Positions 6,012 through 57,813 are shown, counted from the stretch's first letter. The stretch is 64,000 nt of DNA from Ostreococcus lucimarinus (GCA_000092065.1 CP000587.1), one strand, 5' to 3'. Translations and numbers: made by a program. The notes: generated by a model from the letters alone, not told the origin.

Positions 6012-6861
6012 ATGCCCCCGGCGGCGGCGGCGAAGAGGAAAGCAAAACCACTCGCGGCGACCTCGCCGTCGCCCGTGAAGAAAAATGCCAAGACCACGGC
6101 GCCCGCGGCGTCGAACGACGACGCCAGCGCGCTGTCGGTGCAGCAGCAGTGTTTCCTTCAGGCGCTTCTGTCGCGCGGGATCGTCGAAAGCGAGGACGCG
6201 GAGGCGTTGTACAGGTGCGGTCGTGTCGCACACGCGCGATTTCGACGATGAAGCGCGAAAAGAAGGCGCTCGCGGGACTGACAAATGAGCGTCGATCGCA
6301 CGCGCGGCGCGCAGAGAAATCGTCGAAGACGACGCCGCGAACGAGTTCACGCGATTCTGGGGCGAAATCGCCGTCGCGTTGAAATTTTTAGATTTAGACA
6401 TACGAACGGGTAAATTCGAGGGCGATGGGAAGACGTACATGGCGGTGGTGAACCAAGGGACGACGGAAGTGGCGAAATTGGCGACTCGGATGACGCCGGC
6501 GGAAATCGCGCTGTTTCGAGTCGCGATGTTGGAAATTCTGCGCGATGATTCGAGCGCCGAGCGCGGGATCGATTTCATGAGCGCGTTGAATTCGACCGAG
6601 TTACAATTGACGCAAGACGCGTCGACGCAGGACGGGGCGACGCAGATGACGCAACTGGAGAAGCAAACGCAGACGGTGCAAAAGATGAGCAAGGTCGTCA
6701 AGGACGCCGCGCTCAACGACCTCGTCGCCGAGCGATGGCTCGAGCGCGTCGACGACGGCCGTCGTCTGACCCTCGGTCCTCGATCATTCCTAGAGCTCAG
6801 AGAATTCATCCTAGCCCAAGCTCCCGAGCGCGCGCGCGCGAGGTGGGATAAATTGTTGTGA
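6012..6861 (+). CDS. NSE1-like (non-SMC element 1 of the SMC5/6 complex) N-terminal/winged-helix region; two exons 6012..6214 and 6315..6861; no RING domain
   Basis: ATG at 6012. Exon 1 ends AG|GTGCGG at 6214 and exon 2 starts after CGCAG| at 6315, which restores the frame. The spliced protein 'FLQALLSRGIVESEDAEALYR|EIVEDD...LKFLDLDIRTGKFEGDGKTYMAVVNQGTTEVAKLATRMTPAEIALFRVAMLEIL' parallels human NSMCE1 'FLQLLMTHGVLEE...LESLYIEIKRGVTEDDGRPIYALVNLATT...ENELDLFRKALELII'. The stop is at 6859-6861, before any zinc-finger. Confidence 0.45.
6215..6314 (+). other. Spliceosomal intron (100 nt) in the NSE1-like gene
   Basis: GTGCGG donor, ACTGAC branch point at 6277-6282, CAG acceptor ending at 6314. 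Exon 1 alone runs into a stop at 6249-6251; exon 2 reads in a different frame. Confidence 0.55.
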
Positions 6862-6946
6862 CTTGTGACGAACCGTCCGCCGTCCTCGCCCTCGCGCGTC
6901 CCGCGCCGCCCCACATCGCGTCGCGCCGTCGCGCGTCGCGCGCGCG

Positions 6947-8125
6947 ATGTCTCACGCGCGCGGTTCCATGCTCGCGTGCGCCGACGCACCGTCGACGACG
7001 GCGTCCGCGTCGCTCGACGCGCCGCCGCCGCCCGAGCGCGTCGTTCGCGACGGCGACCTCGTCGTCGTCGTCGAGGGCTTCAACGCCGCCGTCGCCGAGC
7101 GCGTGCGAAGCGGCGGCGTGTACGCGTCCAAGTACGGGACGTTTCACCACGACGATTGGATCGGGCGCGCGTTCGGCGCGCGCGCGCGCGAGCGGGACGG
7201 GAGAGGGTTCGTGTGGCTGTGCGCGCCGACGCCCGAGTTGTGGACGAAGGTGCTGGAACATCGCACGCAAATCCTGTACGCGGCGGACATATCGCTGGTG
7301 TGCGCGGAGATGGAACTGACGCCGGGGAGCGTGGTGATGGAGAGCGGGACGGGGTCGGGAAGCCTGACGCACGCGCTGGCGCGGTGCGTCGCGCCGACGG
7401 GACGAGTGTGGACGTACGAGTTCAACGAAACGCGCGTGAAAGCGGCAAAGGAAGAGTTCGCGCTGAATGGGATATCGGAGTACGTCACCGTGACGCACAG
7501 AGACATCGAACGGGATGGATTCCCGAAGGAGATGGCGGGACGCGCGGACGCGGTTTTTTTGGACTTGCCGGGGCCGCACAAGTGCGTGGGGAGCGTCGCG
7601 CGTAGTCTTCGCCCGGACGGCGTGCTCTGTTCGTTTTCGCCGTGCATCGAACAGGTGCAGAAAACTATTTTAGAGATGAAAAAGCACGGGTTTGCGGACG
7701 TCAAGACGGTGGAGTTGTTGGGGCGCGAATACGACGTCGAGGGAAAGCGGTTGCAGAGAGACTTGTCGGCGCCGCTGAGCAAGGCGACCAAGGTGGGATG
7801 GCGGAAGGACACTAAGCGCCCGCGTGACGCGCCGGTGGACGATGGCGACGACAACGTAATGACGCAGCACGTCGTCACATTTCCGCGACAGCGCCTGCAG
7901 TCGCACACGGCGTACCTGACGTTTGCCCGTCTCGTGCCCGAGCCCGAAGGTTGGGCGAAGACGCTCGCCGAGCGCTCGAAGAATGGCGTGGGTGGAGACT
8001 TGTTAGCGCGCGCGGCGGAGGTGTTGCAGAGGAATCGACGCAGTGGGCGCGACAGTCCAGCGCCACGGGCACCGAAAGCGCCGAACAAAAACATGCTCTC
8101 CAACCCGGGCGAGTACTCCGATTAG
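6947..8125 (+). CDS. TRM61: tRNA (adenine58-N1)-methyltransferase catalytic subunit TRM61/GCD14
   Basis: ATG at 6947. Strong TRM61 blocks 'DGDLVVVVEG', 'CAPTPELWTKVLEHRTQILYAADIS', 'VMESGTGSGSLTHALAR', 'VWTYEFNETR', 'DAVFLDLPGP'. Confidence 0.75.
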   Translation: MSHARGSMLACADAPSTTASASLDAPPPPERVVRDGDLVVVVEGFNAAVAERVRSGGVYASKYGTFHHDDWIGRAFGARARERDGRGFVWLCAPTPELWTKVLEHRTQILYAADISLVCAEMELTPGSVVMESGTGSGSLTHALARCVAPTGRVWTYEFNETRVKAAKEEFALNGISEYVTVTHRDIERDGFPKEMAGRADAVFLDLPGPHKCVGSVARSLRPDGVLCSFSPCIEQVQKTILEMKKHGFADVKTVELLGREYDVEGKRLQRDLSAPLSKATKVGWRKDTKRPRDAPVDDGDDNVMTQHVVTFPRQRLQSHTAYLTFARLVPEPEGWAKTLAERSKNGVGGDLLARAAEVLQRNRRSGRDSPAPRAPKAPNKNMLSNPGEYSD

Positions 8126-8198
8126 TCGCTCTAGCGAGCTTTGCTATCGATAGAACTAAACCTTGCTATGCGCTACGCATACATGTAGCAAATATACG

Positions 8199-55992: not shown

Positions 55993-56022
55993 GGCGGTTT
56001 TAGGCGCGTAGACGATGTAAGC

Positions 56023-56071
56023 GAGAAGATTGATTTGAGCGAGCGCGCGAGAAGATTGATTTGAGCGAGCG
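56023..56071. repeat. 23-bp direct repeat x2 (GAGAAGATTGATTTGAGCGAGCG) in a convergent 3' intergenic region
   Basis: Copies at 56023-56045 and 56049-56071, between the prefoldin stop (55990-55992) and the minus-strand PA-domain gene stop (56091-56093). Confidence 0.6.
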
Positions 56072-56090
56072 AGCGAGCGTCCGAGGCGGC

Positions 56091-57813
56091 TCACGGTTGA
56101 GCGACGGGAGCGGTCGGCGGCGCGCCGCTCTCGTCTTCTTCGTGAGGCTTCCAAATGATGTGCCCGGTCATGCGACGGCGACGGCGACGGATTTGGTACA
56201 CTGCGCAGACGACGACGACGCCGACGAAGCAAAACGTCACGGCGAGCACGGCTGCGATGGTCGATCGATCGGCGCGTTTGAACCCGCGATCGTCGACGAC
56301 GTTCGCGAGGATATCGCACGCATCGCCGGAGAATCCGTCCTCACACACACAAGAAAACGACATCGCGATCTCGTCGTACACGCATTCGCCCGCGCGAGAG
56401 CAGTTTGACGAGAACGCGTCGTCGAGCCCGGGGCATCGCGTCGAGCAGTTCGTCCCCGGCGACGCGAATCCCGGAGCGCATCGACGGCATCGCGTCTTTG
56501 GTCGGCACTCGTACACTTCGGCGCCGACGCGAACGTCCGGTTCGTCGTACATTTTCTTCAAAAGCTTGTTGCCGTCGAGCAAGTTCATCACGATGGTCGG
56601 AATCGAAATGGAATCGGGCGGATGGGAACCGACCCAGTTGACCGCGGCGAGCGGCTCGAACTCGGTATCGATGATGACAGCCGCAACAGCGCCAGCTTTT
56701 TGACACGCGAGCGTTTTTTGTGAGAAGAAGCAACCACCTCGACTCGTCACACACACCGCCCCTCGCAAATCGGCGGCGTTGAGCATCGTCCCGCACGCCT
56801 CGTGATCAAACGGTGCGTTCGTGCGATTTGGAACCATCTGCGCTAGTAACCATGGCTCTGATGTGAGTGTTGCGTTCAAAAATCCATCCGTCGTGAACCA
56901 GCCCGTCGAAAAGTTGCCGAGAAATTTCCGCGCGTCGCCGGCGAGAAGAAAGTACTCGTCGTCAAACGCAACCGGCGTCGACATCGCGACCACCGCGCGT
57001 CCAGACACCGGCCCAGTACCCGTGCGCTCGGCCCCACGTCCTTGAAACGCATCGCCCGAATGTTGTTCGCCCAGGTAGCACGAGTTTGTATCGTTTCCGC
57101 ACGCGCCGTAATCCGGTTCGGCGACGAACGGCTCTCGTCTCGTGTACGTCTCATTCTCCGATCGTACCGTCACCGAAAGCGTACCATCGTCGAACTCACA
57201 GCCGTTGAAGTCCGAGAATCGCGCCAACCGCGACCCGAACAAGCGATGCGAGATTTCAAATCCCGATCGTAAACTGCCGCTGATCACGACGATTTGCAGG
57301 TACCAAACGCCGACGTCGATCGCGTCGACGTCGATGTTCAAGCTGTCTTCGTGCGGAAACAGTCCGAACGAAAGCGAATCGTTCGCATACACCCCTAACA
57401 TCTCAGGGTGTTCGAGCGCACCTCGGTGTAAGATGAATCTCGCCTCGTCATCCTCGTCCACGTACGCCGCCGCGTCGCCGTCGGATCGTCTCGCGTCGTT
57501 TCGGCTCTCGTCCGCGCCCTTCCTAAAACTAATCTCCACATCCATCGGTTCGCACGTCACCTCGAACGAAAACATCGCGTACGTCCCCGCCAGCATCGCC
57601 GGTCCCGCGTATCGCGTCACCGCGTTCTCCACCAGCGGTACGACGTTCTCCCGATTCTCGCTCGCCCGCGCTGCTCGAGCGCCGCGTCGCCGTCAGTCGC
57701 CGCGCTTCACCCCTTCGCTTCGACGCACCACCGATCGCGAGTCCCGACGCCATCGCGATCGCCAGTAATTTTACGCGTTCCGCTCGCCATCGCCGCGTCG
57801 TTCGTCGCGTCAT
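56091..57813 (-). CDS. Type-I membrane protein with a protease-associated (PA) domain and EGF-like Cys-rich module (vacuolar-sorting-receptor-like); two exons 57729..57813 and 56091..57670
   Basis: Exon 1 from ATG 57813 encodes the signal peptide 'MTRRTTRRWRAERVKLLAIAMASGLAIGG'. It is spliced (G|GTGCGT ... GAGCAG|CG) to '...ARASENRENVVPLVENAVTRY...'. PA domain 'VCVTSRGGCFFSQKTLACQKAGAVAAVIIDTEF...IPTIVMNLLDG'. EGF-like 'CRPKTRCRRCAPGFASPGTNCSTRCPG...CVCEDGFSGDACD'. TM 'IAAVLAVTFCFVGVVVVCAVY'. Without exon 1 the protein has no start or signal peptide; the ORF-track 'M' at 57632 is GTG. Confidence 0.45.
57671..57728 (-). other. Putative very short spliceosomal intron (58 nt; alternative acceptor 3 nt upstream gives 55 nt)
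   Basis: Minus-strand GTGCGT donor at 57728, ACTGAC branch point (plus GTCAGT 57693-57698), tandem CAGCAG acceptors ending at 57674 or 57671. The phase fits both. Confidence 0.35.

What the first reader, a model, noticed from the sequence alone, without database searches (positions are those of the whole stretch)
6215..57728. Uniform, highly constrained intron architecture (GTGCG/GTACGT donor, invariant ACTGAC branch point, YAG acceptor) in a nearly intron-free genome
All nine introns I could place have the same layout: a GTGCGG/GTGCGT/GTGCGC or GTACGT donor, an exact ACTGAC 19–38 nt upstream of a CAG/TAG acceptor, and a length of 58–239 nt. These are 6215–6314, 11378–11503, 12434–12571, 21244–21324, 30749–30987, 31586–31676, 32461–32554 and 57671–57728. 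Three of them are multiples of 3 without stops, so naive ORF finding reads straight through them (Rab6 gains a 46-aa insert in its P-loop; V-ATPase e gains 42 aa). In every case the spliced product restores collinearity with conserved orthologues. The yeast-like strictness of the branch site, at roughly one intron per five genes, points to a reduced spliceosome/intron set, or possibly to a recently propagated intron family.
Basis: seen in the sequence. Interest (0 to 1): 0.55.

Follow-up and report, generated by a model that had tools for sequence, protein, structure and literature searches.

The report
Known strict-signal introns of Ostreococcus lucimarinus
The window comes from the tiny marine green alga Ostreococcus lucimarinus, and the uniform GTGCG…ACTGAC…CAG introns are real but were already described for this genome in 2008, so the finding is correct and ordinary.

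Summary
All eight listed intervals carry a GTGCG/GTACG donor, exactly one ACTGAC and a CAG/TAG acceptor. The combined signal occurs 12 times against 2.9 expected by chance. The window is Ostreococcus lucimarinus CCE9901, and four spliced products match deposited proteins exactly. Conserved domains run unbroken across the junctions where a domain spans them. Relatives at 93-96% identity keep the signals while the introns change length, mostly by amounts not divisible by three.

The pattern is published. Irimia & Roy 2008 (PLoS Genet, "The peculiar case of Ostreococcus") report ACTGAC in 87% and GACTGACG in 66.5% of EST-confirmed introns outside chromosome 2. They also report the donor consensus GTGCGTG, the acceptor CGCAG and a branch-to-AG distance of 20-35 nt. 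Roy & Bowser 2022 found a standard U1 pairing region in Mamiellales.

The idea of a recently propagated intron family is refuted. The interiors share only low-complexity GACG repeats. Five introns sit at the same positions across the genus, and two of them in lineages assigned by GC content to Bathycoccus or Micromonas. "Invariant" holds only in this strain; relatives show ACTCAC, CCTGAC, ATTGAC and GTTGAC. The longest intron hosts the orthologue of snoRNA Ot-CDsno67.

The parts
6215..6314 (+). 100-nt intron (phase 2) in the Nse1 gene (CDS 6012-6861). GTGCGG donor, GGACTGACA branch site, CAG acceptor 33 nt after the branch A.
   Evidence: The spliced product is identical to XP_001418712. The SMC_Nse1 domain (residues 46-229) runs unbroken across the junction at residue 67. 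Relatives keep the signals at 99 nt. The position is the same in divergent Ostreococcus lineages.
10989..11159 (-). 171-nt intron, in frame and stop-free (phase 1), in the TFIIS_M/SPOC gene (9100-11214). GTGCGC donor, CACTGACG branch site, CAG acceptor.
   Evidence: Motifs, translation. Relatives have 170, 181 and 166 nt with the signals kept. An unbiased GT..AG placement by best protein alignment puts an intron after ..RLRG in five Ostreococcus lineages, a Bathycoccus-like lineage and a low-GC lineage.
11378..11503 (+). 126-nt intron, in frame and stop-free (phase 2), in the V-ATPase subunit e gene (11286-11621). GTGCGT donor, GACTGACG branch site, CAG acceptor.
   Evidence: The spliced product is identical to XP_001418714. 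The ATP_synt_H domain (residues 3-65) is unbroken across the junction at residue 30. Relatives have 122 or 123 nt. Six Ostreococcus lineages have 121-155 nt, all with GT[GA]CGTG and GACTGACG.
12434..12571 (-). 138-nt intron, in frame and stop-free (phase 0), in the P-loop of Rab6 (11876-12631). GTGCGC donor, GACTGACG branch site, CAG acceptor.
   Evidence: The spliced product is identical to XP_001418939. The Ras domain (residues 15-172) is unbroken. Relatives have 137 or 139 nt. An intron sits at the same codon boundary in Ostreococcus-, Micromonas- and Bathycoccus-like contigs.
12765..12962 (+). 198-nt intron in the 5' UTR of RPA3 (CDS 12966-13289, XP_001418715), ending 3 nt before the ATG. 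GTGCGA donor, GACTGACC branch site, CAG acceptor.
   Evidence: Motifs, gene identity. A strict composite signal lies upstream of the RPA3 ATG in every divergent Ostreococcus lineage examined, in otherwise unalignable sequence. I estimate the chance expectation at about 0.007 per 330-nt region from the shuffle count. No transcript evidence.
21244..21324 (-). 81-nt intron (phase 2) in the ribosome recycling factor gene (20730-21722). GTACGT donor, GACTGACG branch site, TAG acceptor. It contains an in-frame stop.
   Evidence: for the motifs and for the stop. The RRF domain begins 12 residues after the junction, so exon 1 must supply the start codon. Three of four relatives have 82 nt, one has 81, all with signals kept. 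No exact match to a deposited protein for any start codon tried.
30749..30987 (-). 239-nt intron (phase 2) in the glycyl-tRNA synthetase gene (29131-31403). GTACGT donor, GACTGACG branch site, CAG acceptor. It hosts a snoRNA.
   Evidence: The spliced product is identical to XP_001418945. It aligns without a gap to human GlyRS 4kqe across ..PVLRAS|GHVEKF... Relatives have 241 nt. The orthologous O. tauri intron is annotated and yields Ot-CDsno67.
30835..30915 (-). 81-nt C/D box snoRNA inside the GlyRS intron, orthologue of O. tauri Ot-CDsno67.
   Evidence: Box anatomy. It is 69/81 identical to Ot-CDsno67, with both guide regions identical. Two variable positions among four relatives. No Rfam family reaches gathering score.
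31586..31676 (+). 91-nt intron (phase 0) near the 5' end of an uncharacterised 188-aa gene (31532-32189). GTGCGC donor, GACTGACG branch site, CAG acceptor.
   Evidence: Relatives have 99 nt through an 8-nt insertion, with signals kept. No conserved domain spans the junction and no exact match to a deposited protein. Support is moderate.
32461..32554 (+). 94-nt intron (phase 0) in a coiled-coil protein gene (32410-33019). GTGCGC donor, GACTGACG branch site, CAG acceptor.
   Evidence: Relatives have 101 nt, keep the donor and acceptor, but read ACTCAC instead of ACTGAC. Support is moderate.
57671..57728 (-). 58-nt intron (phase 1) that joins a short first exon encoding a signal peptide to the PA-domain/EGF membrane protein gene (56091-57813). 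GTGCGT donor, GACTGACG branch site, CAG acceptor.
   Evidence: The donor, branch site and acceptor are conserved in the 93% lineage at 61 or 64 nt. The exon-1 ORF with its ATG is kept in two of four relatives. This is the weakest of the eight.

Best explanation
These are ordinary U2-type (GT-AG) spliceosomal introns of Ostreococcus lucimarinus CCE9901. They belong to the already described class of highly constrained introns that fills the intron-poor bulk of this genome, meaning everything outside the atypical half of chromosome 2.

How they work (inferred from established spliceosome biology, not shown here):
- The donor GUGCGU/GUACGU is recognised by a standard U1. Pairing is wobble at +3 and mismatched at +4.
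- The branch site GACUGACG pairs with the U2 GUAGUA box and bulges the second A.
- The second step uses the first YAG lying 18 nt or more downstream of the branch A. There is no polypyrimidine tract.

The signals are held by purifying selection, while the interiors drift freely in sequence and length. The introns are old retained introns, shared across the genus and in part across Mamiellales. They are not a young mobile family. One of them, in GlyRS, is kept long because it hosts a C/D snoRNA.
For: - Organism and gene models: four spliced products are identical to deposited O. lucimarinus proteins.
- Collinearity: Pfam domains are unbroken across three junctions. GlyRS aligns without a gap to human GlyRS.
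- Statistics: the composite signal occurs 12 times against 2.9 expected. All 10 introns have exactly one ACTGAC, and the acceptor is the first YAG at least 18 nt after the branch A.
- Selection: in relatives at 93-96% identity, 153 of 1270 intron columns vary against 28 of 810 flanking exon columns. Donors and acceptors are always kept. Length changes are mostly not multiples of 3, including in the three in-frame introns.
- Age: the introns sit at the same positions, with unrelated interiors, across Ostreococcus lineages. The Rab6 intron is also present in Micromonas-like and Bathycoccus-like contigs, and the TFIIS/SPOC intron in a Bathycoccus-like contig.
- Literature: 87.2% ACTGAC, 66.5% GACTGACG, donor GTGCGTG, acceptor CGCAG and a branch-to-AG distance of 20-35 nt in 319 EST-confirmed introns outside chromosome 2 (PMC2483917). 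Here 10 of 10 have ACTGAC and 7 of 10 have GACTGACG.
- snoRNA: orthologue of Ot-CDsno67.
Against: - No transcript data were available for these ten junctions, so splicing is inferred.
- Three introns (31586, 32461, 57671) lie in poorly conserved N-terminal regions with no domain across the junction. My spliced products for them, and for RRF and TFIIS/SPOC, did not match any deposited protein exactly.
- For 57671, two of four relatives lack an intact first-exon ORF.
Introns that do not conform could have been missed. A scan with a relaxed branch site outside coding sequence gave only one weak extra candidate.
- The base-pairing model is textbook inference and does not explain why +4C is preferred with a standard U1.
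Confidence: 0.95

Rival explanations
1. The introns are copies of a recently propagated, introner-like mobile element, which would explain their uniformity.
For: The interiors score higher against each other than shuffled sequence does (mean local score 14.3 against 8.2) and higher than random intergenic segments (9.9 +/- 1.4, about 1% of control sets reach it). Introner elements are known in the related genus Micromonas (PMC4540971, listed).
Against: The best alignments are gapped matches of (GACG)n/(CGCG)n low-complexity sequence, with no shared unique sequence. Five of the ten introns occupy the same positions in lineages whose proteins are only 55-80% identical, and their interiors are unalignable. 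Two reach lineages assigned by GC content to Bathycoccus or Micromonas. No presence/absence differences were seen among relatives at 93-99% identity.
Confidence: 0.02
2. The strict signals reflect a reduced or altered spliceosome, for example lost factors or snRNAs that co-evolved to match GUGCGU and GACUGACG.
For: Across eukaryotes, having few introns goes with strong branch-site and 5' splice-site consensus (PMC2483917). The introns here lack a polypyrimidine tract: 115 purines against 97 pyrimidines between branch site and acceptor. That would fit reduced dependence on U2AF.
Against: U1 candidates in five Mamiellales keep the standard ACUUAC pairing region. U1, U2, U5 and U6 are expressed in O. 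tauri. The same genome splices weak-signal introns on chromosome 2, which argues against a generally stricter machinery. Nothing in this window bears on spliceosome content, and no snRNA gene was found in it.
Confidence: 0.12
3. The uniformity is partly an ascertainment artefact. Introns were found by their motif, some listed intervals are chance matches or translated inserts, and non-conforming introns went unseen.
For: About 3 composite matches are expected by chance, and 3 of the 12 are indeed spurious. The published frequency is 87%, not 100%. Orthologous introns in relatives carry ACTCAC, CCTGAC, ATTGAC or GTTGAC. Three listed introns lack protein-level confirmation.
Against: A gene map built without using the motifs, plus Pfam coverage of the 43 genes, shows no truncated domain or orphan exon that would need another intron. 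The three in-frame introns change length by non-multiples of 3 in relatives, so they cannot be coding. A relaxed-motif scan outside coding sequence gave only one weak extra candidate. Seeing 10 of 10 is compatible with 87% (0.87^10 = 0.25).
Confidence: 0.05

Closest known systems
Constrained introns of O. lucimarinus outside chromosome 2 (Irimia & Roy 2008, PLoS Genet 4:e1000148, 'The peculiar case of Ostreococcus')
   Same: Same organism and same signals: donor GTGCGTG, branch site ACTGAC/GACTGACG, acceptor CGCAG and a branch-to-AG distance of about 20-35 nt. The window gives 10/10 ACTGAC, 7/10 GACTGACG, 4/10 CGCAG and distances of 18-34 nt.
   Different: Nothing of substance. This window is simply a sample of that class.
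Strict-consensus introns of hemiascomycete yeasts (GUAUGU...UACUAAC...YAG)
   Same: An intron-poor genome, a near-invariant branch-site hexamer, a strong and atypical 5' splice site with a pyrimidine at +4 despite a standard U1, and no need for a polypyrimidine tract.
   Different: The motifs differ (ACUGAC against ACUAAC, GUGCGU against GUAUGU). Intron density is much higher (about 20-25% of genes against under 4%). The introns are GC-rich and purine-rich. The origin is independent (convergence).
Introner elements of Micromonas and other algae
   Same: Same order (Mamiellales), short introns and stereotyped splice signals.
   Different: Introners are multi-copy families alignable along their length, and they are polymorphic between strains. 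These introns share no unique sequence and sit at ancient, orthologous positions.
Intron-hosted C/D box snoRNAs of O. tauri (Ot-CDsno67 in ostta07g02780; NAR Genom Bioinform 2020, lqaa080)
   Same: Same host gene (GlyRS) and the same intron. It is 69/81 identical, and both guide regions are identical.
   Different: Expression in O. lucimarinus was not shown here, and its rRNA target was not verified.

Membership tests
U2-type GT-AG spliceosomal intron | GT at the 5' end and AG at the 3' end | tested here: met
   10 of 10.
U2-type GT-AG spliceosomal intron | A branch site of CURAY type at a suitable distance upstream of the acceptor | tested here: met
   ACTGAC in 10 of 10, with the branch A 18-34 nt from the 3' end. 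Use of that adenosine as the branch point was not mapped.
U2-type GT-AG spliceosomal intron | Removal restores a continuous reading frame collinear with orthologues | tested here: met
   Exact matches to deposited proteins for 4. Domain or structure-sequence collinearity for Nse1, V-ATPase e, Rab6 and GlyRS. Frame logic and comparative indels for the rest.
U2-type GT-AG spliceosomal intron | Absent from mature mRNA | not testable with these tools
   No transcript data for these loci. The literature gives EST confirmation for 319 introns of this class genome-wide, and an intron-derived snoRNA for the O. tauri GlyRS intron.
O. lucimarinus constrained intron class outside chromosome 2 (Irimia & Roy 2008) | 5' splice-site consensus GTGCGTG | tested here: met
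   8 of 10 start GTGCG and 2 of 10 start GTACG. Position 6 is T, C, G or A.
O. lucimarinus constrained intron class outside chromosome 2 (Irimia & Roy 2008) | ACTGAC (87%), extended to GACTGACG (66.5%) | tested here: met
   10 of 10 ACTGAC and 7 of 10 GACTGACG.
O. lucimarinus constrained intron class outside chromosome 2 (Irimia & Roy 2008) | Branch-to-AG distance in a broad peak of 20-35 nt, with a preference for CGCAG | tested here: met
   Distances of 18-34 nt, and CGCAG in 4 of 10.
O. lucimarinus constrained intron class outside chromosome 2 (Irimia & Roy 2008) | Located outside the atypical, low-GC, intron-dense half of chromosome 2 | tested here: met
   The window has 61.5% GC and about 0.25 introns per gene. 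It lies on a 783,246-bp chromosome. The GlyRS orthologue is ostta07g02780 on O. tauri chromosome 7. The chromosome number itself is inferred.
Introner / introner-like element | Members alignable with one another along most of their length | tested here: not met
   Only gapped low-complexity matches; the best local score is 29 over about 120 nt.
Introner / introner-like element | Recent insertion, so absent at the orthologous site in relatives | tested here: not met
   Orthologous introns are present across the genus, and across Mamiellales for Rab6 and TFIIS/SPOC.
U12-type (minor) intron | Donor /RTATCCTT and branch site TCCTTAAC 10-15 nt from the 3' end | tested here: not met
   Donors are GTGCG/GTACG, the branch site is ACTGAC, and the distance is 18-34 nt.
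C/D box snoRNA (feature 30835-30915) | C and D boxes with internal C' and D' boxes, and a terminal stem | tested here: met
   GTGACGA, CTGA, TGATTA and CTGA in the correct order and spacing, with flanking ACC../..GGT. The C box deviates at one position from RUGAUGA.
C/D box snoRNA (feature 30835-30915) | Homology to an expressed snoRNA | tested here: met
   69/81 identical to Ot-CDsno67, which was detected by RNA-seq in O. tauri in the same host intron.
C/D box snoRNA (feature 30835-30915) | Guide complementary to an rRNA methylation site | not tested
   No O. lucimarinus rRNA sequence was available. The O. tauri paper lists an rRNA target for Ot-CDsno67.

The most novel reading that the evidence does not exclude
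The interiors of Ostreococcus introns are not neutral filler. On the sense strand they are purine-rich and packed with GACG repeats: 48 GACG against 4 CGTC in this window, and 26 against 4 in the Rab6 intron of nine other Ostreococcus lineages. They also lack a polypyrimidine tract. The orthologous introns are C-rich in Micromonas-like contigs and U-rich in Bathycoccus-like contigs. This could mark a lineage-specific intronic recognition element, such as a purine-rich enhancer that replaces the polypyrimidine/U2AF signal and evolves together with splicing factors. The alternative is a mutational bias. I found no description of this, but I did not search the literature for it specifically.
Probability: 0.12. 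Interest if true: 0.35.

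Novelty: already known. Interest (0 to 1): 0.1.

Why it matters
It matters little as a discovery. The pattern, its statistics and its evolutionary interpretation were published in 2008 for this very genome, and the obvious follow-up (U1 co-evolution) was answered in the negative in 2022.

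There is practical value. Naive ORF finding reads through three stop-free in-frame introns here, in Rab6, V-ATPase e and TFIIS/SPOC. Prokaryote-style gene callers applied to marine metagenomes routinely mis-call these genes; clusters in the protein collection hold exon-2-only and intron read-through products. The strict composite motif is therefore a cheap and specific intron finder for Ostreococcus contigs.

One question stays open in the field: why GUGCGU donors persist with a standard U1. This window cannot answer it.

Tried and rejected
- Exact look-up of window ORFs and of GlyRS among called genes: nothing on record. The eukaryotic NCBI models are not in that index, so I used exact look-up among the protein clusters instead.
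- Alternative start codons and unspliced forms for RRF, TFIIS/SPOC and the 31586, 32461 and 57671 genes: none matched a deposited protein. The GenBank models for these five genes remain unknown to me.
- GC3-based gene finding was too unspecific. A codon log-odds map worked, but it produced one artefact: 3654-4130 is an RGG repeat read in the wrong frame.
- SNARE gene 3' 'intron' 40949-41001: rejected, because the transmembrane anchor is already complete without splicing.
- Rfam on the whole window and on the GlyRS intron: no family at gathering score. The snoRNA was identified through the O. tauri supplement instead.
- Loci L009-L014 proved to be the same strain (99.7% identity) and were uninformative.
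I reached the region through cluster members instead.
- Longer cluster members P0029 and P0031, which I hoped were spliced metatranscripts, are intron read-throughs.
- A search for a co-evolved U1 snRNA in metagenomes was dropped once Roy & Bowser 2022 turned out to have answered it.
- The TTTGAAA..GCACC element as a general promoter motif: no other copy in the window.
- Inteins, considered for the in-frame inserts: rejected. The inserts are 42-57 aa, and their frame is not preserved in relatives.

Full report
**What is there**

Four are on the + strand and four on the - strand, and lengths run from 58 to 239 nt. The text says nine introns, but only eight are listed.

**Is it more than chance?**

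ACTGAC alone is not enriched: 23 copies on both strands against 20.5 +/- 4.6 in 300 dinucleotide-preserving shuffles. The composite GTRCG...ACTGAC-N14-32-YAG occurs 12 times against 2.87 +/- 1.71, with a maximum of 9.

Of the other four, 22409-22653(+) and 46569-46779(+) lie antisense to the NB-ARC/TPR gene and to the thioredoxin domain of another gene, and are chance matches. A further weak site, 40949-41001(+), overlaps the stop codon of a SNARE gene whose membrane anchor is already complete. The remaining two look like real introns and are described below.

**Organism and gene models**

Exact look-up shows that my spliced products for 6215-6314 (Nse1), 11378-11503 (V-ATPase subunit e), 12434-12571 (Rab6) and 30749-30987 (GlyRS) are identical to XP_001418712, XP_001418714, XP_001418939 and XP_001418945. 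These are proteins of Ostreococcus lucimarinus CCE9901, on a 783,246-bp chromosome. The products for the other four genes matched no deposited protein with any start codon I tried, so I looked for independent evidence.

**Protein-level evidence**

- The SMC_Nse1, ATP_synt_H and Ras domains run unbroken across their junctions.
- Spliced GlyRS aligns without a gap to human GlyRS (4kqe) across ..PVLRAS|GHVEKF...
- The RRF domain starts 12 residues after its junction, and the 81-nt intron carries an in-frame stop. Exon 1 is therefore needed to supply the start codon.

The three stop-free in-frame introns are those of 126, 138 and 171 nt.

**Close relatives**

Syntenic loci from metagenome-assembled relatives are 93-96% identical to the window. 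In nine introns the donor and acceptor are always conserved. ACTGAC is conserved in eight; in the 32461 intron the relatives read ACTCAC.

Variable alignment columns number 153 of 1270 inside introns against 28 of 810 in the flanking exons. Intron lengths change as follows:

| Window | Relatives |
|---|---|
| 100 | 99 |
| 171 | 170 / 181 / 166 |
| 126 | 122 / 123 |
| 138 | 137 / 139 |
| 198 | 195 / 192 |
| 81 | 82 (81 in one of four) |
| 239 | 241 |
| 91 | 99 |
| 94 | 101 |

The three 'in-frame' inserts would shift the reading frame in relatives, so they cannot be coding.

For 57671-57728 the signals are conserved at 61 or 64 nt. The first-exon ORF, a signal peptide, is intact in two of four relatives. 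This is the least secure of the eight.

**Distant relatives and intron age**

A metagenome scan with Rab6 returned 80 loci. I assigned lineages by GC content; their taxonomy was not verified.

- **Rab6.** The P-loop intron sits at the same codon boundary in several Ostreococcus lineages (123-164 nt), in Micromonas-like contigs (184-227 nt, pyrimidine-rich 3' ends, no ACTGAC) and in Bathycoccus-like contigs (176-323 nt, GTGCGT donor, GCTGAC).
- **V-ATPase e.** I placed introns using only GT..AG and the best protein alignment. This intron is at the same position in six Ostreococcus lineages (121-155 nt, all GT[GA]CGTG and GACTGACG). It is absent in Bathycoccus-like loci.
- **TFIIS/SPOC.** The intron is shared by five Ostreococcus lineages, a Bathycoccus-like lineage and a low-GC lineage.
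- **Nse1.** The intron is shared within Ostreococcus.
- **RPA3.** A strict composite signal lies upstream of the ATG in every Ostreococcus lineage, in otherwise unalignable sequence. This makes 12765-12962(+) a well-supported 5'-UTR intron of XP_001418715.

The interiors are unrelated between lineages. Branch-site variants seen in relatives are ACTCAC, CCTGAC, ATTGAC and GTTGAC.

**Introner test**

Intron interiors resemble each other more than shuffled sequence or random intergenic segments do. The alignments, however, are gapped low-complexity (GACG)n matches with no shared unique sequence. Together with the orthologous positions, this rejects a recently propagated family.

**Completeness**

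A gene map built without using the motifs, with Pfam coverage of 43 genes, shows no truncated domain that would call for another intron. A scan with a relaxed branch site outside coding sequence adds only 45862-46055(-). That candidate would delete a start codon and is probably chance. The count is therefore 10 introns in 10 of about 43 genes.

**What is known**

Irimia & Roy 2008 (PMC2483917) devote a section to this genome. Among 319 EST-confirmed introns outside chromosome 2, 87.2% contain ACTGAC and 66.5% contain GACTGACG. The donor consensus is the atypical GTGCGTG (4.8 bits), the acceptor prefers CGCAG, and the branch-to-AG distance peaks broadly at 20-35 nt. They discuss one spliceosome against two and favour a single, unaltered machinery.

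Lanier et al. 2008 (PMC2367439) give introns in 20-25% of transcripts. Roy & Bowser 2022 (bioRxiv 10.1101/2022.06.08.495308) report GYGCGY donors across Mamiellales with a standard U1 pairing region.

The window's values match these figures: 10/10 ACTGAC, 7/10 GACTGACG, 4/10 CGCAG and distances of 18-34 nt. The finding is a correct rediscovery.

**Mechanism**

This part is inferred from established spliceosome biology. A standard U1 pairs with GUGCGU through a G-U wobble at +3 and a mismatch at +4. U2 GUAGUA pairs with CUGAC and bulges the branch A.

The acceptor is the first YAG lying at least 18 nt beyond the branch A in 10 of 10 introns. The only AGs skipped are closer than 9 nt or are GAG. 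There is no polypyrimidine tract: 115 purines against 97 pyrimidines between branch site and acceptor.

**Side observations**

- The 239-nt GlyRS intron has the lowest GC (0.50) and is the least diverged. It contains an 81-nt C/D box snoRNA at 30915-30835(-). This is 69/81 identical to Ot-CDsno67 of O. tauri, with both guide regions identical. Ot-CDsno67 was detected by RNA-seq in the intron of glycyl-tRNA synthetase ostta07g02780.
- Intron interiors are strand-asymmetric. GACG occurs 48 times against 4 for CGTC, which is 54 against 4.5 per kb. In the coding sense strand the figures are 19 against 11 per kb. A also exceeds T. The bias recurs in other Ostreococcus lineages and is reversed in Micromonas-like and Bathycoccus-like orthologous introns. 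Its cause is unknown.

**Verdict**

Novelty: already known. Interest: low.

Noticed in passing
window 30835-30915 (-), inside intron 30749-30987: An 81-nt C/D box snoRNA with boxes GTGACGA, CTGA, TGATTA and CTGA. It is 69/81 identical to the experimentally detected O. tauri Ot-CDsno67 in the orthologous GlyRS intron, and both guide regions are identical. No Rfam family reaches gathering score. It explains why this intron is the longest, the most AT-rich and the least diverged.
   Followed up: yes
interiors of the ten introns (window 6215-57728); Rab6 introns in L025-L041, L054-L094: There is a strong sense-strand asymmetry. GACG occurs 48 times against 4 for CGTC, A 197 against T 122, and there is no polypyrimidine tract between branch site and acceptor. 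The same bias appears in nine other Ostreococcus lineages (26 against 4). Orthologous introns are C-rich in Micromonas-like contigs and T-rich in Bathycoccus-like contigs. The cause is unknown: mutation bias or a purine-rich recognition element.
   Followed up: partly
window 12632-12965; L019-L060 upstream of RPA3: The Rab6 and RPA3 start codons are divergent and only 334 nt apart, and the RPA3 5'-UTR intron fills 198 nt of that spacer. The Rab6 promoter may therefore lie inside the RPA3 intron. A TTTGAAA-N-GCACC-like element within this intron is conserved in all Ostreococcus lineages and in Micromonas-like loci. It has no other copy in the window.
   Followed up: partly
L005-L008 (intron orthologous to 32461-32554); L035 and L038 (Nse1); L027 (TFIIS/SPOC); L031, L038, L041, L045, L046 (Rab6): Orthologous introns in sister lineages carry branch-site variants in place of ACTGAC: ACTCAC (in two independent introns), CCTGAC, ATTGAC and GTTGAC. 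In some, ACTGAC lies about 55 nt from the acceptor. 'Invariant' therefore applies only to this strain and this window.
   Followed up: partly
window 45862-46055 (-): This is the only extra intron candidate from a scan with a relaxed branch site outside coding sequence (GTGCGC...CCTCAC...TAG, 194 nt). It would remove the ATG of the EF-hand gene (44283-45878). It is probably a chance match.
   Followed up: partly
protein clusters (e.g. P0019, P0029, P0031, P0034, P0074): Prokaryote-style gene calls on marine metagenome contigs systematically mis-model these Ostreococcus genes. Examples are exon-2-only products (Rab6 173 aa, GlyRS 530 aa) and intron read-throughs (Rab6 215 or 231 aa, a 220-aa product through the 99-nt intron). 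Some carry misleading names: a 140-aa Nse1 fragment is labelled 'xylose isomerase'.
   Followed up: no
window 11391-11430 and L019, L001-L004: The (GACGC)n repeat at the 5' end of the V-ATPase e intron varies in copy number between near-identical strains (126, 121, 122 and 123 nt). It is a microsatellite-like length polymorphism inside an intron.
   Followed up: no
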